A DNA stretch of 42,942 nucleotides from positions 1 to 42,942 of the forward strand of contig CALGLS010000047.1 in the NCBI GenBank assembly GCA_937959375.1. The letters run 5' to 3'. Position numbers and translations under genes: made by a program. The notes beneath the pieces are model-generated. The model had not been told where the DNA came from. It saw nothing but the letters and a program-made list of their open reading frames with translations, and did not search any database. Position 1 is the first letter of the stretch, and each line of letters opens with the position of its first letter. This document shows positions 2,143 through 33,240 of the stretch, piece by piece. Origin of the DNA: an uncultured Saprospiraceae bacterium (GTDB lineage Bacteria; Bacteroidota; Bacteroidia; Chitinophagales; Saprospiraceae).

Positions 2143-2799
2143 ATGAAACAACACTTAGCAATTCTTATCCTAGCCATAACCACCCTCTCTTATGCTTGTA
2201 ACAAAAAGTGTGAAAGTGTAAAAACTGGAGCGGTTGCCCTCAATGAAATTTCACAAACCTATACACCTTATCAAGATGGAGCCTCGCTTACTTTCGTAAA
2301 TGAGCAAGGCGAGGAAATGGTTTTCACCAATGAACGTATTGCTGAAGATTTTAGAATTTGTGTCAAATATCTTTGTAAAAACACGAGTGATCCTTTTGAT
2401 CAGATTCCATGTGAGTATTATGAAGCGCAGGGATTTCGGAATTTATTGCGGACAGCTTCTAATGATACGATGATAATTGAGTTGGTCGTTTCTACGGAGA
2501 ATTATCAATCAGAAAGCACTTTGTTTTATGACCTCTTTAGTATACATATGTCAACGATTGGTCCATTAACACGGGGACAGTATGTTCCTCATATTGGATT
2601 TACCGATCCTGTTTTTGATCAAAATACAACTTCTATCACGGAGCCGATGATTGAAGTGTCGGAAATTGAATTGATGGGTAAAACGTACACCGATGTTATT
2701 TATACAAATGATTCGACTGACCATACGCTTTACTTTCAAAAAGGAAAGGGACTCGTGGTTATTCAGTTGGCGGGAGAACTTTGGGAGTTGGTGGAATAA
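2143..2799 (+). CDS. hypothetical lipoprotein (218 aa)
   Basis: ATG ORF. Signal peptide MKQHLAILILAITTLSYA-C with lipobox Cys19. Followed by a strong terminator. No family recognised. Confidence 0.55.
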   Translation: MKQHLAILILAITTLSYACNKKCESVKTGAVALNEISQTYTPYQDGASLTFVNEQGEEMVFTNERIAEDFRICVKYLCKNTSDPFDQIPCEYYEAQGFRNLLRTASNDTMIIELVVSTENYQSESTLFYDLFSIHMSTIGPLTRGQYVPHIGFTDPVFDQNTTSITEPMIEVSEIELMGKTYTDVIYTNDSTDHTLYFQKGKGLVVIQLAGELWELVE

Positions 2800-2825
2800 A
2801 CAAATGTACTAAGCCTTCAAAAAAA

Positions 2826-2858
2826 GCGTCTGATCTTAATTGATCAGACGCTTTTTTA
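2826..2858 (+). terminator. rho-independent terminator
   Basis: Perfect 10-bp stem gcgtctgatc (2826..2835) / gatcagacgc (2842..2851) with a 6-nt loop, followed by tttttt. Lies 27 bp after the stop at 2799. Confidence 0.75.
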
Positions 2859-3277
2859 ATAAATTAGTACACATTAAAAATATTTTTTTATTTTTTTTTT
2901 CGAAATTCATTATCACTTCTAAAAAGTGCAAAATAATTCCAACGAAGAACTTATGTTAGGTAAAAACCTTGTGCTAACTGTCATATGATGAAAAACAAAA
3001 TACAACAAACTTATCTCTTCTTTGTACTGCAAAAATCATTCCACCACATTAAAGAAAAAGTTAAGACATAACCATATGATTACAAGTCTTGATTTCTTTT
3101 GATATTCCCCTTATTTTTGTATTACGAAACTTATATTTCTTACTTTTTATCAGCAGCAAAAGTAGAAACATCTTTGACTTCCGATTCAGTTTCATAACCG
3201 TACGTAACCATAGCCTTTTCATTTATCGGCATAGATTATTGCTACCCTCAGCTGTAACTAAACTAAAATCTTATATT

Positions 3278-3544
3278 ATGGAAAACGTCCTTCTTTTGAC
3301 CATCATCATTTCATTTACATTAGTTTTCAAAACAGTCATTAACATCAACTTTGGCAACAACAAGCCTAACAAAAGGTGTGAGAATCAACAACCAACTGTT
3401 ATTGTTGTACAACCGGCGCTACCTGCTAATCAAGATGATTCATCGTGGTTGTTTTTAGTTTTATTCGGATTGATTGGATTTTTGATGTATCTATATCTAC
3501 TCTCGCCAAAACTGTTTACTGATTTATTTCTAATTGGCAGCTAA
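3278..3544 (+). CDS. small hypothetical membrane protein (88 aa, two predicted TM helices)
   Basis: The track ORF 3089..3544 starts at TTG and its first 63 codons are low-complexity and AT-rich. The in-frame ATG at 3278 gives MENVLLLTIIISFTLVF... plus a C-terminal hydrophobic helix WLFLVLFGLIGFLMYLYLL. No homology recognised. Confidence 0.35.
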   Translation: MENVLLLTIIISFTLVFKTVININFGNNKPNKRCENQQPTVIVVQPALPANQDDSSWLFLVLFGLIGFLMYLYLLSPKLFTDLFLIGS

Positions 3545-3600
3545 TTAACATCAAAAAGCAAAGCTATTGAAAAGGTGGCTTATGCTTTTCCAAAACTAAA

Positions 3601-3632
3601 AAGCCGTCAAACCAATACTGGCTTGACGGCTT
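3601..3632 (-). terminator. rho-independent terminator between convergent genes (mainly for 3653..4063)
   Basis: Stem aagccgtcaa (3601..3610) / ttgacggctt (3623..3632) with a 12-nt loop. On the minus strand it is followed by a T-run (complement of the aaaaa just upstream of 3601). The T-tract on the plus strand is weaker. Confidence 0.6.
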
Positions 3633-3652
3633 TCATACTTACGAGGAGAATA

Positions 3653-4063
3653 CTATGATTCGCTAAAAATAACATACAAGGTATAAATTGATCCTGGTAA
3701 AACGAACAACAAACTCAACAATAAAGAGATCCAAAATCGATCGTTAATCTCTCCTTCATATAAGTACATCGCTAGTGGTGGAAGTAAAATTGCAAGAACA
3801 ATCAACAAGGCGAAACTTATCTCAGTGTTTGAGTTCTTTTCTTTCTTTATCTCCTTTAGTGCTGACTTTAGTTCCTTTCGCATTTCTTTTTTCTTAGCAC
3901 GTTTTTCTTTTCGACCTAGTTCTTTCCATTCTTTTTCTATAGGATGTACAGGAGTTTCAGTTACAGTTTTTTCAACTGGCTTGACCGTTGAGTTTACTGA
4001 ATAAGCAGGCATTGTAAATAGCAATAATAGTAGTGTGTAAATAAATAATCGGCAACTTTTCAT
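3653..4063 (-). CDS. Pmp3/YqaE (UPF0057) family proteolipid fused to a signal peptide and a Lys/Glu-rich N-terminal extension
   Basis: The C-terminal 55 aa, ALLIVLAILLPPLAMYLYEG...FWISLLLSLLFVLPGSIYTLYVIF, match the two-helix Pmp3/YqaE signature (LLPPL ... PG-IY--YVI). The N-terminus MKSCRLFIYTLLLLLFTMPAYS looks like a signal peptide. The middle region is KE-rich (KEKRAKKKEMRKELKSALKEIKKEK). Confidence 0.6.
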   Translation of the reverse strand: MKSCRLFIYTLLLLLFTMPAYSVNSTVKPVEKTVTETPVHPIEKEWKELGRKEKRAKKKEMRKELKSALKEIKKEKNSNTEISFALLIVLAILLPPLAMYLYEGEINDRFWISLLLSLLFVLPGSIYTLYVIFSES

Positions 4064-4198
4064 GTTTTCTTTTTTTATTATTGAAGAAGTTATTTTTATG
4101 AAAATTATTCATTCTCATCACTTTATAAAATTTGCTCAACAAAGATAATATTTACATCTTAAATTTGATTGCACTTGTTCGTTATTTTCAAATTCAAC

Positions 4199-4236
4199 AA
4201 AAAAAACCACTAACACAATTTGCATTAGTGGTTTTC
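4199..4236 (-). terminator. rho-independent terminator of the OmpA/SPOR gene
   Basis: Stem aaccactaa / ttagtggtt (about 4205..4213 and 4225..4233). On the minus strand it is followed by a run of 8 or more T (the a-run at about 4199..4206). Lies 20 bp downstream of the stop at 4257. Confidence 0.65.
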
Positions 4237-4256
4237 TTTTATTGAAGTTGTTTATA

Positions 4257-5000
4257 TCACTGTTGTCGAAGTGGTGCTGGTACATTAATATCTTCTACTA
4301 CCTGCGCCAACTGTCCATCTGTTTTTACAACTTTCAATTCGACACGACGATTGTACTGACGACCTTCCGCTGTATCTCGACCATCTTCTAATTCATTTTT
4401 TGCAATTGGAGCTTTCTCTCCGAATGTACTCACTCTAAGTCGATTGCTGGAAATGCCTTTGCTTTCTAAATATTTCTTTGCAGCATTTGCCCGACGAGTA
4501 GAGAGTGCCTCATTGTATTCAAAAGATCCCTTTGCATCGGTATGTGCATTCAACTCGGCATTGTAATTTGGATTATTGGATAAGATGGTATAGAGTTGAT
4601 CCAATTGTCTTTTAGATTCTGTGCGCAAAGTTGAACGATCAAAATCAAAAAAGATAGATTGAATTTTAGATGGGTCCATCTTAGGAGCCATACCACAAGC
4701 TAGTGAGCAAGCATTTCGAATGCGCCCCATGTCGATTACACGAGCGTTGTATCCAAGAGCAGTTGCTTGTTGTGCAGTAGCTGAAGCAGCTGCTTCATCT
4801 GCAAATCCACTGATCAAATACTTATGAATATCGTTGTGATCTTTTACATAATAAATGCCGCTTAGCCCTTTGAAATAATCCTTAATTGACACTTGTGTTT
4901 CAAAAGCTGCAACTTGCACAATGTAATCGCTACTTTGCGAAAAGGCGGAAAGACTAAAAAAAAGGCATAGGAATAACGGAAGGAAAGTTTGTTTTCTCAT
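4257..5000 (-). CDS. OmpA-family peptidoglycan-binding protein with an N-terminal SPOR-like domain
   Basis: Signal peptide MRKQTFLPLFLCLFFSLSAFS. SPOR-like segment YIVQVAAFETQ...KYLISGFADEAAASATAQQATALGYNARVI. C-terminal OmpA_C signature FDFDRSTL...LNAHTDAKGSFEYNEALSTRRANAAKKYLESKGI...NRRVELKV. Confidence 0.8.
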   Translation of the reverse strand: MRKQTFLPLFLCLFFSLSAFSQSSDYIVQVAAFETQVSIKDYFKGLSGIYYVKDHNDIHKYLISGFADEAAASATAQQATALGYNARVIDMGRIRNACSLACGMAPKMDPSKIQSIFFDFDRSTLRTESKRQLDQLYTILSNNPNYNAELNAHTDAKGSFEYNEALSTRRANAAKKYLESKGISSNRLRVSTFGEKAPIAKNELEDGRDTAEGRQYNRRVELKVVKTDGQLAQVVEDINVPAPLRQQ

Positions 5001-5256
5001 TTGATTTGTATTTTGGTTAAAAAAATGCAGTACCTCGTAACTAGGAATTACAAAGCGCTAGTATGTTTATAAAACTAAGATATGGAATTTTATAAAATTG
5101 GAGAAATTTATAAGAATTAGATCATCTAGATCCACTAAAAACAACCTAAATAGAGTATTTATGCGTTTAAATTTTTTTTAATATAACTAGGAATTGTTAT
5201 TGGAATAGTGGTAGAAAGGACTTACCAGGCCGACCACTTGTAAAAAGATAGGGCTT

Positions 5257-8200
5257 TTACTTTTTAGAAATCACAGGGGCTTTCGCTTCACAATTTGTAG
5301 AACAGGAATTATTTAACAGCGGATTTTGCCATTCATTATTCGTTGGAGTTGTATAAACGTTTCCATTTACCAAGCCACTCCCATCAACTAAGGGTGCACC
5401 TGTACCAGCAATTCCATCTGCATCTCCGTCAACGATACCTTCTTCCTGTGTGTCGAAACATGCATCCGCATCTGCATCAAGTTCATAGGCATCATAAACT
5501 CCATCAGGAGTCGTCTCACTATCGGCGATAACATAGCTAATGGTTCCATTATCTGTTACCGTCTCAATATTATTAAACAATCCATTTAGACCAAACAGAG
5601 TCGGTGTTCCATCAATAACACCATCTCCATCCGCGTCGGTTTGTCCATGTCCTGCTTCGTCTACATCATAGATACCATCATTGTCAGAGTCGAGATCAAG
5701 ATAATCAGCAACAAGATCATTATCCGTATCTCTAGATTCACAACTAAAAGCAACATTTCCTAATCCAAAGTATTCTCCATCTGTACAATCAGAAACAGAC
5801 CAATCTTTTCCTGATATCGATTCCATTTCTATCTCGATTCGATCTAAGTCGGAAAGTACAGTCAGTAAATCTGCCGCTGTACCGCTCCAAGTTGCATCAT
5901 CTAAGTCAAATGTAAAGGTTGTCCAAATACCAATATTAGCCAAACCTGTAGCATCAAAAGTGGTTGTTATTGTCGTTCCTCCTCCAGTTAAATTAACCTC
6001 CATCACTGCAACTCCAGGATCTTGCGTTCCTGTGATACCATCATAAGTTCCATTAATCCAATTAAAACTAAATTCTCCATTGAGTTTGTTACTTAGGTCT
6101 GCATTTAAATTATTTAGACTCTCAAAATGCATGGTCCCTCCATACGTATCATCTGCCATGATAAAGTTACCTGCTGGATTGGCAGGAATATTAGACATAG
6201 TACAACCTTCTGATGTAAGTAGACTTGAAGAGTGGATAACTCGTCCCTGTATATTTCCGTCATTCAAGTTATCTTGCCACCAACCTTCTCTATCTGCTTC
6301 GAATCCAAATTCATAAGTTGGACAATGCCCTTCTTCTAAATCAGGAATTCCATCATTATCATCATCCAAGTCGTAGGCATCACAGATCGTATCTCCATCA
6401 GTATCAACACCCGAGCAATCTCCATCTGCACAATCTACGTTTCCATCTCCATCATCATCTAATCCGTTATTACAAATTTCTGGTGTAAGCACAGTGACGG
6501 TAAATGTAGTACTGTCTACGCAACCGTCATCATCAAAATAAACGACTTTGTAATCTCCTGCTTGATTGGCTTGGATATTACTTAAATCTATCCGATCTCT
6601 ATCAGTCCCTGAATCAGTCACTTGATAAAATGAATTAGGTCCTGTCCATATAAATGTCCAGTCGTCGAAAGTATTTCCTATAAATTCTAATCGTAAATGA
6701 TTTCCTTGTACGGCAGTCGCATTAGTTCCTGTAAAGTAATTCTCAAAATCAATTTGATACTCTTCTGTCATGGTAGGCGTTGGCTGACAAATACAACCGT
6801 AATTAAACGCAGCATCTAGTGATAATGACGCAGCCCCCAGAGTAACTTCCTCAAATGTCAATCTCAAATAGCGGGTATGCACTTCAGTCGTAAACGCATA
6901 ACTAGTGGGAGCACCAATGCTCATATTATATGGAGAAGCACTGTTTGTAAAAAAGTTAACACCATCAATTGATTCTTCAACCGTTGTGGCAATATTATTT
7001 CCAATTCCTCGTATAAAATAAACTATTGAAGTATCCATCGCAACTCCTAGGTCAATGACCATCGTATCGCCAACAGTAATATTTGCATACAGGTCATCTG
7101 TAGCTCCTGTAGCAAAAGAAGGATTCACAACGCCAACACTTGTTTGACTAATTGCATAATTGAATATCGCACAATCACTATCTGCGCAATCTATATCTCC
7201 GTCGCCGTCATCGTCTATTCCGTTATCACATATTTCGGGAACAAGTAAGTTTACAGTAAATGATGTACTATCAACACAACCTACATTATCGTAGTAAACC
7301 ACTTTGTATTCACCGATTTGATTGGCTTGAATATTAGTTAAAACTAAACGATCTCTTGCATTTCCATCTCCGGTATCAGTTACCTGATAAAACGAGTTAG
7401 GGCCTGTCCAAATAAAAACCCAATCATCAAATCCTCCTCCGTCAAAATTTAAAATTAGGTCGTCTCCCACAAAAACTGGAGCGATAGATCCCGTCACAAA
7501 ACCTCCTGCATTAATTTCATATTCCTCTACCATGGCAACAACAGGTTGACAAATACAATTGCCGTAAGTAATCGCATCTACTCGTACAATTGTTGCCCCA
7601 GCAGTAAGTCGGAGATAACGTGTATGAGAACTTGTCGTAAACGTTGTATCTGCTAAAGAAGCTGAAGGAACTGTAATTGGTGATCCAGCTGCCGGAAAGA
7701 AGTTAATACCATCAATTGATTCCTCTATCGCAAGCGTTGCACCTGAAGAAACATGAGCTATAGTTAATGTATAATCTTCTCCAATATCTAAGGCACTACC
7801 TAAATCAACTACCATTGAGGTAGCAGTTCCGATAGTTGTAACTTGTCCATCAGGAGCACCTAATAAACTCTCCGGATTTAATACTGATCCAGTATTGGTT
7901 TGAGCTGTTGCATAATAAGTTGTGTTACAATCTGAATCGGCACAATCTATGTCTCCATCACCGTCATCGTCTATTCCGTTATTGCATATTTCGGGTGGAA
8001 CCGATACGTTTACCGTAAAAGTTGTACTATCAACGCAACCTACCGGATCAAAGTAAAAAACGGTATATACACCAGCTTGATTGGTTTGAATATTATTTAA
8101 TGTTAATTGATCTCTAGAATTCCCATCGCCGGTATCCGTTATCTGATAAAAGAAATTAGGACCTGTCCATACAAATACCCAATCATCAAATCCACCTCCC

Positions 8201-11200
8201 ACAAAATTTAGTGTTACATTCTCTCCTACCTCAGCAGGTACAGTTGCCCCAATTACAAAACCTTCTGCATTTATTTGATACTCTTCTACCATAGAAGCGG
8301 CGGGCTGACAGATACAATTGCCATAAGAAACTGCATCAATAATGAAAGCTGATGAAGGGGAAGAGATTCGTAAATAACGTGTATGAACCGTTGTGGTAAA
8401 AACTTCATCCGCTAAAGTTGGTGAAGTAATTGTAAAAGGCGAAGCTGCTGCAGTAGCGAAATTAATTCCATCTAATGATTCATCAATAACAATTTGTGCA
8501 CCTGGCAAAAGGTAGGTTAGCGTTAGGATGTATTCCTCACCAACATCTAATATACTTCCTAAATCAATAATATACGAAGCTGGTCCAGCTCCCACTCCTG
8601 CGCCTTGTCCATCAGGAGCACCTAATACATCGTTTGGATTTGATACAGACCCATCATTTACTTGAGATACTGCATAATAAGTTGTGTTACAATCTGAATC
8701 GGCACAATCTATATCTCCATCTCCGTCATCGTCTATTCCGTTATTACAAATTTCTGGAACGACTACATTGACAAAAAAGGAATCTAGGCCCATGCAGCCT
8801 AGTGTATCTATCATATTTGCGTAATAGGTCCCAGATTGATTGATTTGAATATTATTTAAAATTAGATGATCTCTCAACGTTCCAGAATCATTTACTTGAT
8901 AGAGTGAATTAGGACCTGTCCAAACGAACACCTCTGAATTAAAGGTTCCAACAAAGTCTAATCTTAAGTTATCGCCTTCAAAAATCAAAACACTGTCACC
9001 TGCTATATCTGGAGCTGCGTTAATTGAATATTCTCCCACCAAGTTAATCGCAGATTGACAATCACAATGGTCATAAGTCACTGCATCTAAAATTAAATCA
9101 TTAGAGCCTGTAGGAGGAAATATTAATCGCACAAATCTAGTATGTACCGTTGTAGTTATCGTAATATCACTTGCACCTCCCACAGTATAAGGAGAAGCTG
9201 AAGAGGCAAAGAAGTTAACGCCATCTATAGATTCTTCAATCGTTAAACTTCCATCAAAAGTTACAACATCTAAGGTATAATCTTCACCAACACCTAGTAT
9301 ATTACCTAAATCAATAGTCATCTGATCTCCATCACCAAAAATCGCAGACAAAAAGTCGGGAGCTCCAAGAACATTATCACCTGACAAAACGCCAATATTC
9401 GTTTGAGCAGCAGCGTAATATTGGACACTACAATCTTCATCTTGGCAATCTATCGCACCATCCCCATCATTATCAACTCCATCGTTACATATTTCTGGTA
9501 TTTTGATTCCGAATGAGAAATAACTATTTGCTGGATCAGCAATCGTAATTCCTCGAAGAGATGCGCTGATAAAGTTCAACTGTTGAACAGTGGTTCCACC
9601 ATTTGTAAAATCACCATCATCGTCAATAAAAATATAATAGCTACCATCTGAACTTGGATAAGGTGGTAACATTGGTAAATCAAATTGAGGATCATCTACA
9701 TCTACTCTTAGCGCCACATTTTGTACATCTTGTGTTTCGGTAAACTTCCAAACTCTATCAATTCCAAGATATCCTCCATTTGGAATATCGTAGTTTGCGC
9801 CACTCCAAGAAGAGTTAACAGCTGCCCCATTATGTCCCCAAACTAAGGCAGCTTTATCTGTCAAAAATGCAGATGAGTTGGCGCTATTCGTTACCGCAAA
9901 GCTTGCACTTGCAATAGATACAATGGCAGAATCATCTACGGATTTAGATTGTTTTTGAATTAAAGCACCACAAGAGTCTACGGCGATACCAGCAATATCA
10001 TTGGCGTAACCATCCGTTACATCTTTTATAATTGTTCCATCAGAAAATACATAATTGTGTGGAAGTTCCAATCCATATTTAATTGCTAAATAAGAATTCA
10101 CCTTTTCCTTATCTGATTGAGATAAAGTGTCGTCGTAAATTAAAACTTCAGCGATTGTTCCATCAAAGATTTTATCACTGGTAAAAGAACCAACCTTAGA
10201 TTGGCGGCCTATAGATACTGGACCAGCATTGCTAATCAAATAGCTATTGTCTTCTTTTATTTCTGGATTTGTGATTTGGGCTAACGATGCTATTGGATCA
10301 CTTGCTACCTGTGTTCCATTTTGAAGAAGTGATTGAGCATCACCAAAAGCAACTTTCATTTCTATAAGTGTAGGATTAACTCCATTGCTATGACTGAACA
10401 AGGTGTTTGTACCACCAAATGCACCAGGCGTTATAAATTGAGCCTCAGCAGCAGACCAAGCTAAACCATATGATTCAAGATTTGTACTTCCAAAATCTAC
10501 GACAAATCGGGTGCTTTCTGTTGTTCCTACCGTTGGTTTTACGATAGAGAATATTTCCATACCTCCTTCCTCAGAAAAAATATAATCGTCCCCTAAATGC
10601 AATCCATCTGAAAAATCATCGGTATACGTTCCATCAAAAGTTACACCTGGATGATAGTTGATTGAGTTTGAGGAATAAGTCGGAAAATCTGTAGCATTTC
10701 CGTTTGCATTCGCTGAATAAAAGTTTGCTGATCGATCTGCCCAGCTATTTACGGCAGCAGCAGGGATGTCCGTGTTAAGTCCATTCTCTGCATCAAGCCA
10801 AAGTTGTAAATTGGATTGTACTCCACCAGGATAAGCTTCATCAATACGACCATCTCCATTGTCATCAATTCCGTTTCCACAAATCTCGAAGGTAGCGCAG
10901 CCTGTTGGAGCATTCGGTGTCCCTATCGTACTTGAACAAACTATGGATGGCGCAATAGGAACTGATCCATCATCCGTATTGGAAAAAGTATCGTCTGTAA
11001 AATTATAGGAACCAGGACTTGGGGAACCATTTTGGAGTACATAATCTACCGCAGCTGCCAACTGCATCTTATTGCCTGACATTGGTGTAAATGAGGTGGA
11101 CGTATTGTAAGCGATAATATCGGCACCTAATATCGAATTGGCCGTTCCTTTTTGGTTGTTGTAAAATATATTGTTTACCAATTCTATATCGGCTCCATAA

Positions 11201-12723
11201 TTATTTATCGCTCCACCAAATCCAGTGGACGTCACCAAGTTATCTACAAAAGTAGAACTTGTAATTTGCATGTTAGCGTTGAAAGATTTCACTGCTCCCC
11301 CTCCGTCATTCGCTCCGTCTGCATCTTTGAATGCCTCGTTTGATTTAAAGGTACAATTGATAATCAAGTTTGGTGTACCAGAATTATTAAAGGTAGAATT
11401 CATAAAAATGGCTCCTCCCGCTCCTGCTCTATTATTATAGAAGGTTGAGTTTATCACATCAATTCCTGTAATATTAGTACCATGGATGGCTCCTCCTTGA
11501 TCTAGCGTATCTCCGACACAGGACACAAAGTTACATCCTGAAACCAATAGCTTTGTAGCAGATGCCCAAATAGCTCCACCATCATCGTCTGCTTCACTAT
11601 TGGCAATATCACAGTCTATTATTTCATTTGAATAGGATTGAAAAAATCTCAATGCTCCACCGTTTTGTACAGAAGCAGTATTACCACAAAAATCACTGTT
11701 TCTGATCGTCCATTGATGGGCATTTTCAAGATTGAAAGCACCACCTCCACTACCTCTGGCATTGTTATCATAGAACGAGCAATACTCTACTACTAAATTT
11801 CCATTATTAGGATCAGAACTACTGGAAGTATTATAAAATTGAGAAAAAGATAGAGCACCTCCTCTTCCTATATTATTATCGTGAAAAACACAATTTTGGA
11901 ATAAGACTTCTGAATTTACATGCGACTGGTTGGCAAGAAATATTGATCCAAATCCAGTACTTCCAGCATCATTATTATTTACTTTTAAATCTATAAATTT
12001 ATAATCTACCTGAGCCGAACTTACTTGCTCAATGAGTATTGCTGGACCTCCTCCAGAAGCTGCATCTCCATTTGAGAGAACAAGTCCTCTGAATTCTAGT
12101 GAAGTGGCGGCGCTACTAGTTACCCTAATTAATCTATGCGAGGCTGCACCATCTATAGTTGTCTGATTCGTAATGGGATCATAATTGGTACATATTTCTG
12201 TACCCGTAGCAGCATTAGGAAAACCACCAATGACACATACATTAGTAGCAATATCTATCTGCAATCCGGGAGCATAGGTACCAGCAGCTATATAGACTGT
12301 TCCACCGGCTTCAATGGTAGTTTTTAAATCTGAAGAACCGAGTGCATTATCCCAGTCAGAACCCGATCCGTCTCCAGTAGCTATTACTTTCACATACTTT
12401 GCGACTCCATTGTAAGACGACTTACCTTCACTTAGAAAGTCATTTTCATCTTTAGCAACAGCTTGTTTACTAACAGGAAGATTTGTTTTGTTGAAATCAG
12501 AAAGGTAAGAAACTGAGTTTGTCTTCTGATTAGAAAAAGAAGTTGAATCAATTAAGTAAGAAATTTCATTTTCTGCTCCGAGTAGTTGATGATTTACATA
12601 AACACTGTTAGCATAAAAAGTATTTATATTGTTATATTCAACAAGCAATTTCTCTAAAGTTGGTGTAGCACCAATTTTAAAAAAAAATAAAAACCCAATG
12701 ATATGATAAATCGTAAATTTCAA
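5257..12723 (-). CDS. giant modular cell-surface/adhesin-like protein 1 (2488 aa)
   Basis: Uninterrupted 7.5-kb ORF. The only start after the in-frame stop at 12730..12732 is TTG at 12723, and a hydrophobic signal-like N-terminus follows. Order of parts: Pmp/choice-of-anchor-Q-like parallel beta-helix repeats (recurrent GGA[IL] ... N-A motifs); [22 protein letters not shown]; a LamG-like block plus a conserved block; four tandem modules of about 250 aa; TSP3-like Asp-rich repeats ([53 protein letters not shown]). It ends ...[16 protein letters not shown]. Confidence 0.85.
   Translation of the reverse strand: [2488 protein letters not shown]
6484..9498 (-). repeat. four tandem intragenic modules of about 750 bp (247-254 aa) in giant protein 1
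   Basis: Module boundaries were taken from the PEIC motifs at aa 1076, 1323, 1577, 1829 and 2081 (nt 9498, 8757, 7995, 7239, 6483). Each module is a Cys/Asp motif, then a discoidin-like segment (...LGAPD...ES[IL]DG[IV]NF...HTR[YF][LV]RL...C[IDL]C[QT]), then an Ig-like segment (F[VI]WTGPN[SF][FL]YQ[VI][TN]D[ST]G...NIQ[AIT]NQ[AIS]G.Y...GC.DS..F.V.V). Nt 7910..7992 and 8672..8754 match at 79 of 83 positions. Confidence 0.85.
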
Positions 12724-13030: not shown

Positions 13031-16000
13031 TTATTGTTTGCTGAGGACAGGGGCCTGTGCTCCGCAATTTGAAATACAAGAGCCTACAAGAGGATTTTGC
13101 CACTCACTATTAGGTGGACTTGCATAAGTGATTGTAGTTACTCGACCATTCATATCGATAGAAGGCACACCTGTTCCTGCGATTCCGTCTGTATCTCCAT
13201 CCACAACTCCTGCCTCTAATGCATCGAAACATGTATCCCCGTCGGCATCTATTTCATAGGCATCATAGATTCCATCAGGAGTAGTTTCGCTATCCGCAAT
13301 GGTATAGCTTAATGATCCATTATCAGCAATGACCTCTACTCCATCAAACAAACCATTTGTTCCGAAGCTAGTAGATAAACCATCGATTATTCCATCTGCA
13401 TTCGCATCAGTTTGTCCATGACCAGCTTCGTCTACATCAAAAATTCCGTCATTATCAGAATCAAGATCTAAAGAATTAACAACGCCGTCACCATCTGTAT
13501 CGGTACAGTAAGTTCCAAAAATTGTTTGTAAACCTATACCTCCATTTGAAAGGGCTCCTGTCTGAGAATATCGAATGACTATATAATCAATTGGCTGATT
13601 AAATACAACGTCAATGGCTGCTTGCTCGGCAGTTCCAGCTGCATTAGCATCTCCTGGAATAAATGGTAAGTTGTCACTGGTCGTTGTTGTTGTTCTAACC
13701 CATTGATTCGCGTCGGGTGCGTTAATAACTAAAAAACCAGTCTGCTTTGCTGTTACTATTGGAGCAACAGGGGTCGCTCCATTATAACCTACGATATCCA
13801 CAACCTCTCGTGTGTTTACGTTACCACCTCTATCAATATCACCAATTACAAAAGAAACTTCCTGTAATAACACACCGGGTGCATTATTAATGTCCATTGC
13901 AAAATCGACAAAATCTTGTAAACTATCTAAACCTATAGCATCAATACTAAGTGCATGATATGATCCAATATTAGTTTGATTAAAGGTGTTATCATCGGGG
14001 TTGTCCACATACAAATTATAATTAAAAGTACCGTCGGCATTGGTATAAGCAACAGATTGAACAGCAGATGGTGTTCCACCTGATACGTTTGTAAAAGCCG
14101 GTGTAATTTCATTCCAAGCCAAAATAGTATCCGTCATACATCCTTCGTCTATATCAGGGATCCCATCATTGTCATCATCCAAATCAAGATAATCACAGAT
14201 CAGATCTCCATCATTATCAAAATCTGAACAGTCTGAGTCTGCGCAATCTATATCACCATCGCCATCATCGTCGATACCATTACCACAGATTTCATCTGGT
14301 AGTATAACATCCACAACAATAGAAACACTATCAAAACAACCTAAATCATCAAAATAAAAGACGTTATAAACACCAGATTGATTTGTTTGAATATTAACTA
14401 AATATAGATGATCTCTCGCCAATCCTGAGTCCGTGACTTGATACAGTGAATTGGGCCCTGACCAAATGAATGTCCCTGTATTATAGGTCCCAACAATATC
14501 TAGTGTTAAACTATCACCTTGATTCAACGTGACACTATCACCAACTATTTCTGGATCCGAATTAATTGCATATTTTTCTTCTATCGCAGGAAAAGGCGTA
14601 CATAGACAATTCCCATAAGTCACAGCTTCTAAGTCTAATGAATTCCCCCCTCCAGACGAAAGTGTTAATCGAACATATCGAGTATGTACTGTTGTTGTTA
14701 CAACAAGATCCTCTGCTCCAGAAAGACTATATGGAGAAATGGAAGCAGGTGAAAAATTAATTCCATCTATAGATTCTTCAATAGTCATATTCCCATTGCC
14801 GTTTGTGATATTCAATGTATATTCCTTCCCAACATTTAAAGGAGTTCCTAAATCAAGGGTCATTTGATCATTAGAGCCAAAAAGCGCAGATAAAAAGTTA
14901 GGTGCACCTACAGCAAAATCTCCATTTATTATTCCAGTATTCGTTTGTGAAACAGCATGATAAATAGTAATACAGTCTGCATCAGCACAATCTATATCAC
15001 CATCCCCATCATTGTCTCCTCCATCATTACAAATTTCTGGCACTTTCATTCCTATTGAAAAATAACTATTGGTCGGATCTTCAATGGTCGTTTCCCAAGT
15101 TGATCCATTTACAAAACTCATTTCTTGAACTGTTGTTCCTCCATTTGAAAAATCACCGTCATCATCAATAAAAAGATGATAGGTACCATCTGAGGAAGGA
15201 AATGGCGGTAAAGCGGGTAGGTCAAATTCAGGATCATTTACATCTACTCTTAACACTACATTTTGAACGTCTTGTGTTTCTGTAAATTTCCAAACTCTAT
15301 CTATCCCCAAATACCCTCCGTTAGGAATATCATAGTTAGTCCCATTCCATGAGGCATTTTCAGCTGCGCCATTATGTCCCCAAACTAATGCAGTTTGATC
15401 ACTGATAAATGTTGATGTGTTGGCACTATTAGTTGCCCAATAAGCAAGATGCGCCATAGAAATAATAGCCGAATCACCTACGGCTTTAGATTGTTTTTGA
15501 ATTAAGGCACCACAAGAATCTACTCCAACACCTGCGATATCATTGGCATATCCATCGGTGATATCTTTTATTAGTGTTCCATCTGAGAAATAATAATTGT
15601 GATTTAAAGTCAGACCATATTTAACAGCTAAATAAGAATTGACCTTCTCTTGATCAGATTGACTAAGCGTATCATTATAAACAAGCACTTCTGATATAGC
15701 TCCGTTAAAAATTCTAGATTGGCTTAAGGCAAAACTTGATGCTTGCCGACCGATAGTAACTGGTCCAGCTGCTACATTTCCGAACGTATCCACTTCTGCG
15801 ATTTCGTTGGCTGTTATTTGAGTAAGGCCTGGTATCGCTGTAGTTTGTAAAGCAGAACCATTTTTCAATAAGGTTTGGTCTGTTTCAAAATCTATTTCAA
15901 GACCTACCAGAGTAGCTAAGGGACCGGTATGATGAAAAAAGAATTCATCTGCTCCTCCATGCGAGGTTGGTGTTTGATTCTTTGAATAAATGTGTGTCCA

Positions 16001-19000
16001 GTTTAAACCAATAACTTCATTACTCCCATGTCCAAAATCATATATATTGGCAAAAGAATTTCCTGTAGGTGCATGTTCTACCACCGAGAATATTTGCATT
16101 CCTCCATTATCGGAATAAATATAATCTGATCCAAGATGTAATCCATCTGAGTAAATATCAGTAAAACTTCCATCAAAACTAATCCCTGGATGATAGTTGA
16201 TCGCATTTTCTTCATAAGTAGGATCATCGGTAGAATTAACATCTGAATTTGCAGAATAAAAATTAGTGGATCGGTCTGCCCAACTCGTTACATCATCACC
16301 AAAGACGGTTGTATTAGTTCCTTGTTCTGCATCAAGCCATAATTGTAAATTGGTTTGTACGCCGCCGGGATAAGCTTCATCAATTCGGCCATCTCCGTTA
16401 TCGTCGATACCATTTCCACAAATTTCCTCTGAGGCACAAGGATTGACATCTGTAATTTGAATAAAAACTTCAGAGGTATCTACACAAGCATTTCCATTGG
16501 TAAGCGTGTATAAAAATGAGATTAAAGAATCACTATTTAATGGACAATCACCTGGAGCAGTAAACGTGAATGCTCCTGAATTTGGATCAGCTAATGTCAC
16601 AGAACCTACAGTAGGTTGAGCAATGATATTAAACGTAAGAGAATTGTTTCCAGACAAATCTACACCATTCAATGTATCAGAAAAAGAGGTGAGCTCATCA
16701 GTTTGATAATTTTGAGTCCAGATCAATATACGGTTACTTGCGTATTCTGCTAAAGCTAAATAGGTTTGGTTCCCTTCCGTGAATACCACTGCCTGGCCCG
16801 AGTTTCGAATTCCTGTAGCAGATGTGCTAGCTCCTGTTGAAGTAAAGTCAGGTTGTCCTAATACGTAATCACCATCTGCGCCATTTGCTTTTGAATTAGC
16901 ATCTATAAAAACAAGAATTCTTGGTCCATAATCAGATACATATAAATTTCCTGCTTTATCAGAACTCAATTGATATGGAACATCGATAGAGCTTGCAGAT
17001 AAACTAAAAGTAGTGGTTGTGAAATCGGTTTGACCAAGTACACGATCCGCATCTGCACCATTTGATTTATTTTTAGCATCTTCCCAGATCAGTATTCTAT
17101 TGTCCGCAGCAGCTCCAACATACAAGTCACCATCAATCACTGTGACACCCGATGTTGCATTGGTCGTTGAAATAGTTCCACCAGATGAAGCCGTTACAAA
17201 ATCAGGCTGTCCAAGAACACCATCTGCATCTGCACCGTTGGCTTTACTAGCTGCCGCATCATATCTTAGGGTTCTTCTATTTCCTCCATCCGTAACCCAT
17301 AATGTCCCGTCTGGTTCAATAGCCAGTCCAATGGGTTGATTGAGCTTAGAGGCAGTTATTGCTGCTGTTCTTGTAACAAAGTCTGTTTGCCCCAATACGC
17401 CATCTGCGTTTGCTCCACTTGTTATCGTAGAAGCATTATCAAATCGTAAAACTCTATTGTTATCAAAATCAACGACCCAAAGGCTTCCATTTTGATCAAC
17501 CTGAATAGCGGTTAAGCGATTAAATTTATTCGCAGCTAAACCACTTGTATTACTAATAAAATCAGTTTGTCCAAGTACTACTTCAGCAGGATCTCCATTT
17601 AGGAAAGCTGCTTTAGAGCCAAAACGAAGAATTCGATTATTCATTTGTTCTGCAACAAAAACTTTCCCACTAGATTCATCGACAGCAATTCCTCGTGGAT
17701 CACGGAAGGTTGTGTCAGAAAGGCCATTTGTATTAGAAGTAAAATCTTCTTGACCAACTACTTGATAAGCGGTTTGTCCATTTTCATATCCTATGACAGA
17801 AACGCCACAATCTGGATCATCACAATCGATTAAGCCATCTCCATCATCGTCAAGACCATTATCACAGATCTCTGGTGGAACGCCCAAGACAATGCTTTGA
17901 TTATTACCAAATTCAGAAGTATTGTTAGTCGGATCAATAGCAAGTGCCGTAATTGGTGTATTTGCAGCTAGACCTTTTCCTGTTACATCAAATGTAAATT
18001 CAAAACGATTTTCTGTTTTTGAAGCAGTGGCTCCTGTTCCATCATCGGTGTAGGAACTAGTGGAAGCATCTACATCACCGACACTACCTTCCAATTCTGA
18101 GTCGATAAAAATATGTCCCTCTCCAAAGCTACTCGTATAAGCGGGAGGAAGTGGACTTGGGTTAGTTGATAAATCCGTTACATAAAATTCTACTTCAGAA
18201 CCTGCAGGAGCAAATCCGGTAATGATTAAATCATCGCCAACTAAAGTAGCGCCATCAATCACAGGAAAATTTAGTAAGTTATTTTCTCCTGTATCTACAT
18301 CCCCATCATCATTGGGTGTAACAGAAAAACTACCTAGTGGGTTATTCAAACCAATACCTAGACCAGCATTATTAGCAAATTGATTTCTACTAATTCGATT
18401 ATTCACTCCAGTTCCTAAGATAGCAATTCCAGAATCTCCATTATTTTGAATTCGATTTCCAACGAACAACTCATTGGTATTAAGCATAGAAGGTGCCCAA
18501 CCAATAATTGTATTTGAAGAAGCACTCTCTAAATATATTCCTCTATTTTGGTTGCCTAATGGTGTCAACCAATCTGATGCAATACCTATTACATTTCCGG
18601 CTATTATCGAGGTACCTGTGCTGTTTATTCGAATTCCATCTCCTGTATGCCCTGATATAATATTGTATTCAACAGTATCATTTACATTATCTCCATTTGT
18701 TCCGATTATCGTATTGGTAAAAGCCCCATAGATATAAATTCCATTTGATCCTAACAGAGCTGTTGTACCAGTTAAATCTGTTCCAAGATAATTACCCGCG
18801 ACTATATTTCCGTCTCCTGTCCCGGCAGATGAAAACCGAATGCCCGTATTTCCTACAATAATATTTCGTTCTGAAACATCATGAATACCATTTGAGTTAG
18901 TTCCTATAATGTTATGATTATTATCATCCGTTAATTGAATCCCATAGTCTGTATTCTCTAACAATCCTAATCCGACTACATCGGTACCGATATAATTTCC

Positions 19001-32025: not shown

Positions 32026-33240
32026 CTAGTAAGACAAATTAAATTCAACCCGTCGATTAGCTTTTCGACCAGCTGCTGTATTGTTATCTGCTACAGGTTT
32101 AGCTTCACCAAAACCATTTGAAGAAAGACGACTAGCATCAATCCCTTTGCTAGCAATATAGTTGAGACATGATTTGGCTCGCCCTTTTGACAGCTCTAAA
32201 TTGGCGGCATCATTCCCGATCGCATCGGTGTAACCTATCATTGATAGTTTGTAATCAGGATATTTTTTCAACAAACCAACCACATCATCAAGTAAACCTT
32301 TGGAGTACGGAGTCAGTGTGTTTTTGTTAGGTAAGAAAATAACCGACTTAAGCGCTTTGTCGAGGATCGCTTTTTCAGTTGCATCTATTTTGATTTCAGG
32401 GCAACCTGCATTTTCTTTAGTTCCTACTTTGTTTGGACATTTGTCATTTGTGTCATAAATACCATCGCCATCTGTATCGGCAGGGCAACCATTATTCGCT
32501 TTGACACCTTTGAGTTTTGGACATTTATCGTCTGCGTCGTAAACACCGTCGCCATCTGCATCAGGAGGACAGCCGTTACTTTCTTTCGTTCCTGCTAATT
32601 GAGGACATTTATCGTCTGCATCATATACACCGTCGCCATCGCTATCAGGAGGACAACCGTTATTGTCTTTTGTTCCTGCTAATTGAGGACAGTTGTCATC
32701 TGCATCAGAGACACCATCGCCATCGGCATCAGGAGGACAACCGTTATTTTCAACAGACCCTTTTTTGAATGGGCATTTGTCTTCTTTGTTTGGAATACCA
32801 TCACCATCTTGATCTGGTGGGCAACCTTGATCTTCGCCTGCCAATTGAGGACATAAATCATCTGCGTCATAAACACCGTCACCATCACTATCTAAAGGAC
32901 ACCCCTTATCTTCTGCCAGACCTGCTAGTTTAGGACATCTGTCGTCTGCGTCATATACACCGTCGCCATCCGTATCAACAGGACAGCCATTGTTTTCGGC
33001 AATACCTACTAATTCAGGACAAGCATCCTGATCGTCAGCAATACCGTCATTATCTTTATCTGAAATTGGTGAATCGATTACTTGTGAAGTAACAGGAGCA
33101 ACATAATCAGTAAGTGGATCACCACTTTTTTTGTAACCGAACTGCATGAAGATCCATCCGAAGAATGCAATGACAACTAATGCGATTAAAAAGTCATTGC
33201 GTTCTCTCTTGTTTTTGAAGCTTAATAGGTTGTTTGTCAT
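32026..33240 (-). CDS. OmpA-family protein with eight thrombospondin type-3-like Ca-binding repeats
   Basis: N-terminal TM anchor FLIALVVIAFFGWIFMQF. Eight copies of D-x-DGDG[VI]-x-D-x-D-x-CP-x-x-x-G-x-x-x-N-x-GCP. C-terminal OmpA_C signature (MIGYTDAIGNDAANLELSKGRAKSCLNYIASKGI...NRRVEFNL). Confidence 0.85.
   Translation of the reverse strand: MTNNLLSFKNKRERNDFLIALVVIAFFGWIFMQFGYKKSGDPLTDYVAPVTSQVIDSPISDKDNDGIADDQDACPELVGIAENNGCPVDTDGDGVYDADDRCPKLAGLAEDKGCPLDSDGDGVYDADDLCPQLAGEDQGCPPDQDGDGIPNKEDKCPFKKGSVENNGCPPDADGDGVSDADDNCPQLAGTKDNNGCPPDSDGDGVYDADDKCPQLAGTKESNGCPPDADGDGVYDADDKCPKLKGVKANNGCPADTDGDGIYDTNDKCPNKVGTKENAGCPEIKIDATEKAILDKALKSVIFLPNKNTLTPYSKGLLDDVVGLLKKYPDYKLSMIGYTDAIGNDAANLELSKGRAKSCLNYIASKGIDASRLSSNGFGEAKPVADNNTAAGRKANRRVEFNLSY
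32398..33060 (-). repeat. intragenic tandem repeats of about 87 nt (TSP3-like, 8 copies)
   Basis: Protein residues 61-281. Neighbouring copies around 32520..32700 are nearly identical at the DNA level (ggacatttatcgtctgc.tc.ta.acaccgtcgccatc...caggaggaca.ccgtta). Confidence 0.8.

What the first reader, a model, noticed from the sequence alone, without database searches (positions are those of the whole stretch)
5260..5307. Identical short C-terminal tail on three otherwise different giant surface proteins: a candidate new sorting or attachment tag
All three giant ORFs stop right after the same motif. Protein 1 ends SCSTNCEAKAPVISKK (5260..5307), protein 2 ends SCISNCGAQAPVLSKQ (13034..13081) and protein 3 ends DCSCCEAKAPVLIKN (38057..38101). 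The consensus is C-x(1-3)-C-[EG]-A-[KQ]-A-P-V-[IL]-x-K-x-COOH. In proteins 1 and 2 the tail follows a shared Asp-rich block. In protein 3 it follows a Cys/Asp motif with unrelated upstream sequence, so the roughly 12-residue tail is conserved on its own. Large Bacteroidota surface proteins with N-terminal signal peptides normally end in a T9SS type A or type B C-terminal domain of about 80-100 aa. Proteins with choice-of-anchor-type beta-helix N-termini generally carry some C-terminal sorting signal. By eye I find no such domain here, and no TM helix plus basic tail of the PEP-CTERM or LPXTG kind. The [IL]-x-K-x ending does resemble the last strand of many flavobacterial type A CTDs (...K[ILV][ILV]K[KNQ]). 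A minimal or degenerate secretion signal, a Cys-dependent tether, or a processing site are all possible.
Basis: partly seen in the sequence, partly recalled or inferred. Interest (0 to 1): 0.82.

Follow-up and report, generated by a model that had tools for sequence, protein, structure and literature searches.

The report
Conserved cysteine tail ending giant adhesins
Three giant surface-type proteins of an uncultured Saprospiraceae bacterium, and at least two dozen relatives in other genomes, end in the same undescribed 12-residue cysteine-containing tail where related proteins carry known sorting signals, so it is a credible but unproven new tag for placing or tethering proteins on the cell surface.

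Summary
P1, P2 and P3 end in ...C-[EG]-A-[KQ]-A-P-V-[IL]-x-K-x-stop.

- **Not a T9SS CTD.** No type A, B or C CTD, or any other sorting-domain model, matches even at E<=10. The tail has no hydrophobic stretch, and no coding potential follows the stops.
- **Found elsewhere.** 27 non-redundant tails from at least 8 Saprospiraceae/Bacteroidota MAGs give the consensus [DE]-C-C-x-A-[QKS]-A-P-[VT]-[LI]-S-K-(x).
- **Strictly terminal.** The core occurs 23 times at the C-terminus and 0 times internally in 478,374 residues.
- **Selected as a peptide.** Conserved Ser and Leu use both codon families.
- **Independent of its neighbour.** It survives deletion of the adjacent acidic double-disulfide repeat, occurs on several architectures, and is absent from 150 other repeat-rich proteins.
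- **Flexible.** AlphaFold2 models it as coil (pLDDT 48).
- **In the sorting-signal slot.** Homologues end instead in T9SS CTDs, LPXTG or TM+Arg signals. One MAG has both tail proteins and a canonical CTD protein.

Best reading: a C-terminal linear motif read in trans for surface sorting or attachment, with the invariant Cys as a likely disulfide tether (SprF/PorG-GldK precedent). Function is unproven, no partner gene was found, and the closest P3 relatives keep CC but drop AP-x-L-S-K.

The parts
5260..5307 (-). C-terminal tail of P1 (SCSTNCEAKAPVISKK). The core from the invariant Cys is 5260..5292; the stop codon is 5257..5259.
13034..13081 (-). C-terminal tail of P2 (SCISNCGAQAPVLSKQ). The core is 13034..13066; the stop codon is 13031..13033.
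38057..38101 (-). C-terminal tail of P3 (DCSCCEAKAPVLIKN). The core is 38057..38089; the stop codon is 38054..38056.
38090..38155 (-). Last acidic double-disulfide repeat of P3 (AEICDDGIDNDGDGQADCDDLDCSC), directly preceding the tail. The NF033662 match covers model positions 4-27 of 32 and stops before the tail.
5257..12723 (-). P1, a 2488-aa giant adhesin-like protein. It has an N-terminal hydrophobic signal, six acidic double-disulfide repeats, Ig-like modules, a TSP3-like Asp-rich block (5320..5700) and the tail.
13031..21871 (-). P2, a 2946-aa giant adhesin-like protein. It has a signal peptide, beta-helix/Chlam_PMP, SdrD_B and NHL regions, four acidic repeats, a TSP3-like block (13091..13471) and the tail.
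38054..42942 (-). P3, a DUF11/SdrD_B-type adhesin-like protein of more than 1,600 aa whose N-terminus lies beyond the window edge. It has three acidic repeats and a confident beta-rich domain before the last repeat and the tail.
37930..37950 (-). Terminator-like hairpin plus T-run about 105 nt downstream of the P3 stop. The gene really ends at the tail.
   Evidence: downstream frames are all closed
4257..5000 (-). OmpA+SPOR (peptidoglycan-binding) protein encoded 257 nt downstream of P1 on the same strand. Its linker contains ACSLACGMAPKMDPSK (4683..4709). It is a possible but unproven envelope partner, and the adjacency is not conserved in other genomes.
   Evidence: non-conservation

Best explanation
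The tail is an autonomous C-terminal short linear motif, [DE]-C-C-x-A-[QKS]-A-P-[VTI]-[LI]-S-K-(x)-COOH. It is carried by Sec-exported giant adhesin-like proteins in a clade of uncultured Saprospiraceae.

Shown here:
- It is strictly terminal.
- It is flexible and is not part of a folded domain.
- It is conserved as a peptide.
- It moves between protein architectures, together with or without the last acidic double-disulfide repeat.
- It occupies the position where homologues carry recognised sorting signals.
- It coexists in one genome with ordinary T9SS cargo.

Inferred:
- Envelope machinery reads it in trans as a surface-sorting or retention tag, in place of a T9SS C-terminal domain.
- The free-end peptide AP-x-L-S-K is the recognition element. 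This resembles the Lys-bearing last strand (motif E) of type A CTDs, where 13-22 terminal residues carry much of the signal.
- The invariant Cys forms a covalent, most likely disulfide, link to an envelope partner. The C-tail cysteines of SprF and PorG do this with GldK/PorK.

Which export route is used, T9SS or another, is not determined.
For: - **Terminal only.** The core AP[VTI][LI]SK occurs 23 times at the C-terminus and 0 times internally in 518 proteins (478,374 aa). In the window's six frames it occurs only at the three gene ends.
- **Peptide-level selection.** In 14 DNA copies, Ala uses 3-4 codons, Pro 3, Leu both CTN and TTA, and Ser both TCN and AGY. DNA similarity stops at the stop codon.
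- **Autonomy.** It is kept when the adjacent repeat is deleted (P1, P2, P0241). It follows non-repeat sequence in L009, P0166 and P0277. It is absent from 150 repeat-rich proteins.
- **Several architectures.** Beta-helix/NHL giants, DUF11+SdrD_B and cadherin-like proteins all carry it.
- **Several copies per genome.** Three in this window, two in SGMAG-66, two in MAG-96 and two in tandem in L005.
- **Export signals.** Full-length carriers have N-terminal signal or anchor segments.
- **Flexible tail.** AlphaFold2 gives pLDDT 48 and coil for the tail, against more than 90 for the preceding domain.
- **Sorting-signal slot.** Homologues end in PF18962, PF13585, LPXTG+TM or TM+Arg.
- **Coexistence with T9SS cargo.** The gene next to P0168 in MAG-96 has PF18962.
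- **Precedents.** SprF and PorG C-tail Cys form a disulfide with GldK (PMC12635249). The last 13 aa and the motif E Lys residues are required, and the last 22 aa of HBP35 are sufficient, for T9SS export (PMC10202324).
Against: - No experiment and no localisation data exist.
- No conserved neighbouring gene was found: no PorP/SprF, and an OmpA gene only in some loci.
- The closest relatives of P3's C-terminal module (50-60% identity) keep CC but end in QGKY, ESNN or NGN instead of AP-x-L-S-K. That part can therefore be lost.
- SprF and PorG tails are periplasmic tails of outer-membrane barrels, not ends of secreted adhesins. The analogy is mechanistic only.
- No HMM similarity to CTD motif E was found.
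- The vicinal Cys may simply complete the disulfide set of the preceding repeat.
- The first AlphaFold2 alignment held only 3 tail-bearing rows, and the second model was uninformative (pLDDT 42).
Confidence: 0.4

Rival explanations
1. Structural or redox cap. The CC and the following residues simply finish the terminal Cys-rich, Ca-binding acidic repeat module, for example by completing its disulfides or protecting the end from exoproteases. There is no sorting or attachment role. The tail is shared because a C-terminal cassette was shuffled among paralogous adhesin genes.
For: - The tail usually follows an NF033662 repeat.
- The nearest relatives keep CC but replace AP-x-L-S-K with unrelated 3-4 residues.
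- No partner gene was found.
- The TSP3 block, repeat and tail occur together as a cassette on both P1/P2-type and DUF11/SdrD-type proteins.
Against: - The tail is predicted to be flexible coil and is not packed on the module.
- It is retained after the repeat is deleted, and it occurs without any repeat.
- 0 of 150 repeat-rich proteins have it.
- Eleven positions show strong peptide-level constraint and a fixed distance to the carboxyl end. This is typical of a motif read in trans, not of a cap.
Confidence: 0.25
2. Minimal T9SS export signal only. The tail mimics the last strand (motif E, with a conserved Lys) of a type A CTD and is enough for recognition by a PorV-like shuttle and SprA. The cysteines are purely structural.
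For: - The last 13 residues and the motif E Lys residues are required, and the last 22 residues of HBP35 are sufficient, for T9SS secretion (PMC10202324).
- Lys at position -1 or -2 is near-invariant (Lys in 26 of 27 tails, Arg in one) and is preceded by [VT]-[LI].
- The same genomes encode T9SS cargo.
- Homologous proteins use type A or type B CTDs.
- Other CTD-less relatives end in different short strand-like K/R tails.
Against: - No detectable similarity to PF18962 or TIGR04183 even at E<=10.
- The tail has one Lys and no K-[LIV]-[LIV]-K pattern.
- There is no motif D.
- This reading does not explain the invariant Cys.
Confidence: 0.15
3. C-terminal propeptide or processing site. The 8-11 residues after the Cys are removed by a C-terminal processing (PDZ/S41-type) or other protease during maturation. 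This would expose or activate the Cys-rich end.
For: - A strict distance to the free C-terminus and a flexible conformation fit recognition by C-terminus-binding domains.
- The small-residue A-x-A-P pattern is present.
- An S41/PDZ peptidase gene lies near P0162 in L018, but this is a single case.
Against: - No conserved protease neighbour was found.
- Relatives with 3-4 residues after CC would have nothing to process.
- There is no direct evidence of cleavage.
Confidence: 0.1
4. Recent duplication or gene conversion of one gene end, with no function of its own.
For: P1 and P2 are adjacent paralogues that share about 170 C-terminal residues.
Against: - P3 shares only the tail and the repeat type.
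- Codons differ at nearly every conserved residue, including Ser TCT versus AGC.
- The tail is present in at least 8 other assemblies, and the tandem pair is conserved in another species.
Confidence: 0.03
5. An ordinary but divergent T9SS type A, B or C C-terminal domain that the first reader missed by eye.
For: These are Bacteroidota giant surface proteins with signal peptides. Saprospiraceae GhpA uses a normal T9SS sorting domain (bioRxiv 10.1101/2024.01.29.577165).
Against: - No Pfam or NCBIfam CTD hit at E<=10 or in the full-length proteins.
- The last folded domain of P3 is followed by a repeat and a coil. Its best PDB matches are weak Ig-like hits, with no CTD.
- All frames downstream of the stops are closed.
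Confidence: 0.02

Closest known systems
T9SS type A C-terminal domain, especially its terminal motif E and the HBP35 last-22-residue signal (PF18962/TIGR04183)
   Same: It lies at the extreme C-terminus of Sec-exported Bacteroidota surface proteins. A conserved Lys sits one or two residues from the end, after hydrophobic residues. It occupies the same slot in homologous proteins.
   Different: The tail is 12 residues of flexible coil, not a 70-100-aa seven-strand Ig-like domain. It has no motifs A-D and gives no HMM hit even at E<=10. It carries an invariant Cys that CTDs lack.
Twin-cysteine C-tails of SprF and PorG that disulfide-bond to GldK/PorK (Liu et al. 2025, PMC12635249)
   Same: Both are short C-terminal tails in Bacteroidota envelope proteins with an invariant Cys, or CC / C-x-C / single-Cys variants. 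The precedent shows that such a tail can make a permanent intermolecular disulfide used for mechanical tethering.
   Different: SprF and PorG are outer-membrane beta-barrel proteins with periplasmic tails. Here the carriers are giant adhesin-like passengers with no PorP/SprF or PorG homology. The AP-x-L-S-K peptide after the Cys is not part of the Cys motif that paper describes (Cys-Xaa-Cys in SprF and F. johnsoniae PorG, a single Cys in P. gingivalis PorG).
Tripartite C-terminal sorting signals processed by sortase, exosortase, rhombosortase or myxosortase (LPXTG, PEP-CTERM, GlyGly-CTERM, MYXO-CTERM)
   Same: These are short signature motifs at the C-terminus of many otherwise unrelated surface proteins, with several copies per genome and a lineage-restricted distribution. 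MYXO-CTERM also has an invariant Cys (own knowledge). Firmicutes homologues of P3 end in LPXTG.
   Different: The tail has no transmembrane helix and no basic cluster after the motif. No NCBIfam signal model hits it. No sortase-like gene was found nearby.
Acidic double-disulfide repeat (NCBIfam NF033662) / MopE-like CxDGxDNDxDG metal-binding motif
   Same: All three proteins are bona fide members, above the cut-off. The tail normally abuts the last repeat and shares its Cys-rich, Asp-rich context.
   Different: The tail lies outside the repeat model. It is absent from 150 repeat-rich proteins. It persists without the repeat.

Membership tests
T9SS type A CTD (PF18962 / TIGR04183) | Profile-HMM match in the last ~100 residues | tested here: not met
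   No hit at E<=10 in the last 199 aa or at E<=0.01 in the full-length proteins.
T9SS type A CTD (PF18962 / TIGR04183) | Terminal seven-strand Ig-like beta-sandwich of about 70-100 aa (PMC10202324) | tested here: not met
   In the AlphaFold2 model of P3's last 150 aa, the beta-rich domain ends at residue 113. It is followed by the acidic repeat and a coil tail with pLDDT 48. Foldseek against the PDB gives no hit at E<=1e-3 and no CTD among the best hits. The P2 model was uninformative.
T9SS type A CTD (PF18962 / TIGR04183) | Conserved Lys-containing last strand (motif E) needed for secretion | tested here: inconclusive
   The tail has a near-invariant Lys at position -1 or -2 (Lys in 26 of 27 tails, Arg in one) after [VT]-[LI]. 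It has only one Lys and no K-[LIV]-[LIV]-K pattern. This is a resemblance only.
T9SS type A CTD (PF18962 / TIGR04183) | T9SS-dependent export with PorV binding and PorU cleavage | not testable with these tools
   This needs genetics or proteomics. The host is uncultured.
T9SS type B CTD (PF13585 / TIGR04131) | Profile-HMM match in the last ~100 residues | tested here: not met
   No hit. Relatives that do have PF13585 end in ...GFIYLNR.
T9SS type B CTD (PF13585 / TIGR04131) | Cognate PorP/SprF-family gene clustered with the substrate gene | tested here: not met
   No PorP/SprF gene was found among the window ORFs that were scanned (ten of the mid-size ORFs plus the three giants) or beside tail genes in L005-L007 and L018-L021.
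T9SS type C CTD (ChiA-type) | Homology to the ChiA C-terminal ~100 aa | tested here: not met
   No NCBIfam hit of this kind at E<=10. I did not verify that the library copy holds the ChiA model.
Sortase/exosortase-type tripartite signals (LPXTG, PEP-CTERM, MYXO-CTERM and others) | Signature motif followed by a hydrophobic TM helix and a basic cluster | tested here: not met
   Only 8-10 mostly polar or small residues follow the Cys. No NCBIfam signal model hits the tail.
SprF/PorG-type cysteine C-tail (PMC12635249) | Invariant Cys or twin-Cys in a short C-terminal tail | tested here: met
   The Cys at -10 is present in all 27 non-redundant tails, but most were collected with patterns that require that Cys, so this invariance is partly by construction. 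A second Cys at -11 (not required by any pattern) is present in 22 of 27. P1 and P2 have C-x3-C.
SprF/PorG-type cysteine C-tail (PMC12635249) | Carrier is a PorP/SprF or PorG outer-membrane beta-barrel with a periplasmic tail | tested here: not met
   The carriers are 770-2946-aa adhesin-like proteins with beta-helix, DUF11, SdrD_B, Ig-like and TSP3-like regions.
SprF/PorG-type cysteine C-tail (PMC12635249) | Disulfide bond to the conserved GldK/PorK cysteine | not testable with these tools
   This needs NEM-trapping with non-reducing blots, or complex modelling with the MAG's GldK.
Acidic double-disulfide repeat proteins (NF033662) | Whole-protein score above the curated cut-off of 41 bits | tested here: met
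   P1 scores 104.7 bits, P2 48.7 and P3 62.0. The tail itself lies outside the model match.
T1SS RTX-type substrates | RTX nonapeptide repeats, no N-terminal signal peptide, an uncleaved C-terminal signal, and adjacent ABC/MFP genes | tested here: not met
   No PF00353 hit. N-terminal signal or anchor segments are present. No T1SS genes were found among the window ORFs that were scanned.

The most novel reading that the evidence does not exclude
The tail defines a new class of Bacteroidota surface-protein signal. It would be a roughly 12-residue 'CC-tail' that lets giant adhesins lacking a T9SS C-terminal domain be exported. It would then tether them covalently, through its invariant cysteine, to an envelope partner such as a PorP/PorV-like carrier, an OmpA-like peptidoglycan anchor or the GldK track. 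It would be one member of a wider, unrecognised set of short Cys-preceded C-terminal tails. That set includes ...CGRVNVIRN in a Chitinophagales MAG and related uncultured assemblies, ...DCPxxxPVxRVSQ, and ...ITNRRITYRVNKN in cultured Maribacter and Flagellimonas.
Probability: 0.2. Interest if true: 0.85.

Novelty: new variant of a known kind. Interest (0 to 1): 0.62.

Why it matters
In Bacteroidota, large surface adhesins are expected to reach the surface through a 70-100-aa T9SS C-terminal domain. Genome surveys count T9SS cargo by those domain models.

A conserved, strictly terminal 12-residue tail on CTD-less giants, sitting where homologues carry CTD or LPXTG signals, means one of two things:
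- A class of cargo or anchoring signal is being missed by current models.
- These giants use another route to the surface.

Disulfide tethering through C-tail cysteines was discovered for SprF and PorG only in 2025. A CC-tail on the adhesins themselves is therefore a directly testable extension of that mechanism.

In practice, a 12-residue display or anchoring tag would be useful for surface engineering. The motif could also be turned into a profile that improves annotation of Saprospiraceae surface proteomes, including those of predatory or filamentous relatives such as Aureispira.

Tried and rejected
1. **DNA-level repeat or recombination site: rejected.** Similarity ends at the stop codon and the codons differ.
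2. **Hidden CTD after a frameshift or read-through: rejected.** All frames downstream are closed, and a terminator follows P3.
3. **Conserved OmpA partner: not supported.** OmpA-family genes flank P1 and P3 here, but the adjacency is not conserved elsewhere. The tail-like ACSLACGMAPK motif in the OmpA/SPOR linker has no robust counterpart.
4. **Profile of 8 tails against the 5.8-billion protein set: little gained.** It returned only proteins of 91 aa or less, nearly all generic CxDGxDNDGDG repeats, with one tail (P0002).
5. **Tail-only profile against 1.84 billion representatives: failed as designed.** All 34 columns were modelled, so repeat-rich proteins filled the list. I reused it as a negative control, with 0 of 150 carrying the tail.
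6. **Metagenome DNA-pattern scan: low yield.** It gave 10 hits, of which only L009 is credible. The rest are short ORFs, mostly in higher-GC DNA, at about the chance rate.
7. **AlphaFold2 of the P2 C-terminus: uninformative.** pLDDT was 42.
8. **Sequence search of the PDB: nothing useful.** The only hit was a 16-bit teneurin repeat match.
9. **Literature searches: no hits.** I searched the motif strings, 'acidic double-disulfide' and Saprospiraceae plus T9SS.
10. **Source contig look-up: not found.** I looked up only the OmpA/SPOR protein encoded downstream of P1, and no gene with exactly that product is on record.
Full report
**1. Observation**

The window has 38% G+C. Over 3.2 kb it is 99.3% identical to a contig of 'uncultured Saprospiraceae bacterium R3_Bin_Bin_237_sub_1' (L004).

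The three giant ORFs lie on the minus strand:
- P1 = 5257..12723 (2488 aa).
- P2 = 13031..21871 (2946 aa).
- P3 = 38054 to beyond the window end. Its frame is open to 42942.

They end in SCSTNCEAKAPVISKK*, SCISNCGAQAPVLSKQ* and DCSCCEAKAPVLIKN*, exactly as reported. A back-translated pattern that includes the stop codon matches only these three sites, against 0.00 expected from shuffles. In six-frame translation the motif occurs nowhere else in the window.

**2. The genes really end there, and the ends are not T9SS CTDs**

- Downstream of each stop, all three frames are full of stop codons.
- P3 is followed by a terminator-like hairpin at 37950-37930.
- Neither NCBIfam nor Pfam gives any type A, B or C CTD or other sorting-signal hit, either in the last 199 aa at E<=10 or in the full-length proteins at E<=0.01.
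- The proteins do contain NF033662 acidic double-disulfide repeats (P1 104.7 bits, P2 48.7, P3 62.0; cut-off 41). P2 also has beta-helix, Chlam_PMP, NHL and SdrD_B regions. P3 has SdrD_B regions and is related to DUF11 proteins.
- AlphaFold2 on P3's last 150 aa gives mean pLDDT 86.9. It shows a confident beta-rich domain (residues 28-113), the acidic repeat (pLDDT 81-88), and then the tail as coil with pLDDT 48.
- Foldseek against the PDB finds nothing at E<=1e-3. The best weak matches are Ig-like pieces of Aureispira GhpA, and none is a CTD.

**3. The constraint is on the peptide, not the DNA**

DNA similarity among the three ends stops at the stop codon.
- The invariant Ala residues use 3-4 codons.
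- Pro uses 3 codons.
- Leu uses both CTN and TTA.
- Ser uses both TCN and AGY.

This rules out recent duplication or gene conversion as the reason for the identity.

**4. Distribution**

- *GTDB species representatives.* The pattern scan gave 7 hits. By my own estimate from the pattern's ~39 bits and the 596 Gb searched, about 2 are expected by chance. Six hits are in Saprospiraceae MAGs. One of these, L004, is the contig that matches this window at 99.3% identity and carries P3's own end, so five are independent hits from four other MAGs. The seventh, in a Eubacteriales MAG, looks like a chance hit.
- *Metagenome collection.* This added one credible case, L009 (...GDACSAKAPVLSKK*). The other nine hits look like chance.
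- *Protein searches with P3 and with P2's C-terminal 600 aa.* These added about 20 more tails.
- *Consensus.* 27 non-redundant tails give [DE]-C-C-x-A-[QKS]-A-P-[VT]-[LI]-S-K-(x). Position -4 can also be Ser.
- *Source.* All carriers come from uncultured MAGs or metagenomes.
- *Copies per genome.* There are three in this window, two in SGMAG-66 (L001, L002) and two in MAG-96 (L006, L021). L005 has a tandem pair that mirrors the P2-P1 arrangement here.

**5. Anatomy and autonomy**

In most carriers the tail directly follows an intact acidic repeat (...D-x-x-D-x-[DE]-C-C-x-A-x-A-P...).

Alignment A6 shows that P1, P2 and P0241 share the TSP3-like block and the WQNP motif with relatives that have an intact repeat. 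In these three the repeat has been deleted, yet the tail is kept at the end.

The tail also follows non-repeat sequence in L009, P0166 and P0277. P0277 is a tandem-95/cadherin-like protein.

Conversely, none of the 150 best repeat-rich proteins from 1.84 billion representatives has the motif anywhere. Across all 518 proteins retrieved (478,374 residues), the core AP[VTI][LI]SK occurs 23 times, always within a residue or two of the C-terminus and never internally.

Full-length carriers have N-terminal hydrophobic signal or anchor segments.

Together, a flexible segment, strong sequence conservation and a fixed distance from the free carboxyl end are the signature of a short linear motif that is read in trans.

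**6. Position relative to known signals**

Homologues of the same adhesin scaffolds end in the following:
- T9SS type A CTDs (PF18962; ...KLVRVKE).
- Type B CTDs (PF13585; ...GFIYLNR).
- LPXTG plus a TM helix (Cohnella, Paenibacillus).
- A TM helix plus an Arg cluster (several homologues, including Chloroflexota-affiliated MAGs).

The tail therefore occupies the sorting-signal slot. It does not replace the T9SS in the lineage: in MAG-96, the gene next to tail-bearing P0168 encodes a protein with a canonical PF18962 domain. Saprospiraceae such as Aureispira export GhpA through a normal T9SS sorting domain, with PorP/PorE-like anchor genes downstream.

No such partner genes accompany the tail genes. 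Neighbourhoods differ between loci.

**7. Mechanistic leads from the literature**

1. For type A CTDs, the last 13 residues and the motif E lysines are required for secretion. The last 22 residues of HBP35 are enough to secrete GFP (PMC10202324). A short Lys-bearing end acting as a T9SS signal therefore has precedent.
2. SprF and PorG carry Cys-x-Cys, or a single Cys, in short C-tails. These form permanent disulfides with GldK/PorK and transmit force (PMC12635249). A Cys in a short C-tail acting as a covalent tether therefore also has precedent in this phylum.

Neither lead is a membership. There is no HMM similarity to CTDs, and the carriers here are not outer-membrane barrels.

**8. Evidence against a necessary sorting role**

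The closest relatives of P3's C-terminal module (50-60% identity over 140 aa) keep the CC but end in QGKY, ESNN, NGN or a degenerate KSYAPILDELNKKEP. No conserved partner gene was found. The vicinal Cys could simply complete the disulfide set of the repeat. For these reasons I keep the structural-cap rival at 0.25.

**9. Verdict**

The most likely reading (0.4) is a lineage-restricted C-terminal tag, read in trans, for surface sorting or attachment, with the invariant Cys as a probable disulfide tether. The rivals are:
- a structural cap (0.25);
- a minimal T9SS signal only (0.15);
- a C-terminal propeptide (0.1);
- a recent duplication (0.03);
- a disguised CTD (0.02).

No Pfam or NCBIfam model and no paper in the searchable library describes the motif.

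**10. Limits**

The true number of carriers is unknown, for three reasons:
- The strict DNA pattern required Val at -4 and a residue after Lys.
- The word-indexed search is bounded by length.
- The tail-only profile search did not work as intended.

Noticed in passing
Proteins P0224, P0229, P0230, P0237, P0238, P0193, P0194; P0220, P0222, P0225, P0227; P0244, P0246, P0249, P0251, P0252: Homologous Bacteroidota adhesin-like proteins that lack any CTD model end in other short Cys-preceded tails. Examples are CCPPxKCGRVNVIRN, CSDCPPVNCVSIQATMIRGSKQ and, after an acidic repeat, DCP[GS]xxPVxR[IV]S[QN]. This suggests a wider, undescribed family of short C-terminal tails.
   Followed up: partly
P0313 (Maribacter sp. 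HTCC2170), P0336-P0355 (Flagellimonas/Muricauda); loci L023-L025: Ig-domain proteins of 625-627 aa from cultured Flavobacteriia share the TSP3-like block and end in ...VNTxITNRRITYRVNKN. NCBIfam finds no sorting domain and there is no conserved neighbour gene. Variants include C..ALTNPHIMY[FY]RR. These hosts are experimentally tractable.
   Followed up: partly
window 4683..4709 (-), inside the OmpA+SPOR gene 4257..5000: The linker of the peptidoglycan-binding OmpA/SPOR protein encoded just downstream of P1 contains ACSLACGMAPKMDPSK. This loosely resembles the tail (C-x3-C-G-x-AP...SK). The OmpA protein near P0162 (L018) has CYGCGAAASQLL. The similarity may be coincidental.
   Followed up: partly
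L005 6881..7984 (-) and 2274..6578 (-): A second Saprospiraceae species (H3_Bin_2_1_1) has two tandem tail-bearing giant genes, ending ...CCNAQAPSLSKN* and ...SCDAQAPVISKN*. This mirrors the P2-P1 tandem in the window.
   Followed up: yes
window 38156..38440 (-); model maad54b960c09: The beta-rich ~85-aa domain before P3's last repeat (Cys-bracketed, pLDDT above 90) has as its best, weak structural matches Ig-like segments of the Aureispira grappling-hook protein GhpA (9fls, 9flp). In close homologues it is labelled PF26689, which hmmscan did not report for P3 in the Pfam copy used here.
   Followed up: partly
window 6409..9489 (-), P1 residues ~1079-2105: P1 contains about five tandem ~250-aa super-repeats. 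Each opens with PEICNNGIDDDGDGDIDCADSDC and is followed by a discoidin- or Ig-like unit.
   Followed up: no
window 26212..27855 (+): A 547-aa protein has the full AprA-like architecture (AprA_N + WH_AprA + MT2-like methyltransferase; E=3e-119). It lies among metabolic genes between the adhesin loci.
   Followed up: no
window 28101..31943 (+) and 32026..33240 (-): A 1280-aa WG-repeat protein lies here, next to a 404-aa protein with multiple Cys-bracketed TSP3 repeats fused to an OmpA peptidoglycan-binding domain. Together with the two other OmpA-family genes, the window is rich in envelope-anchoring proteins.
   Followed up: no
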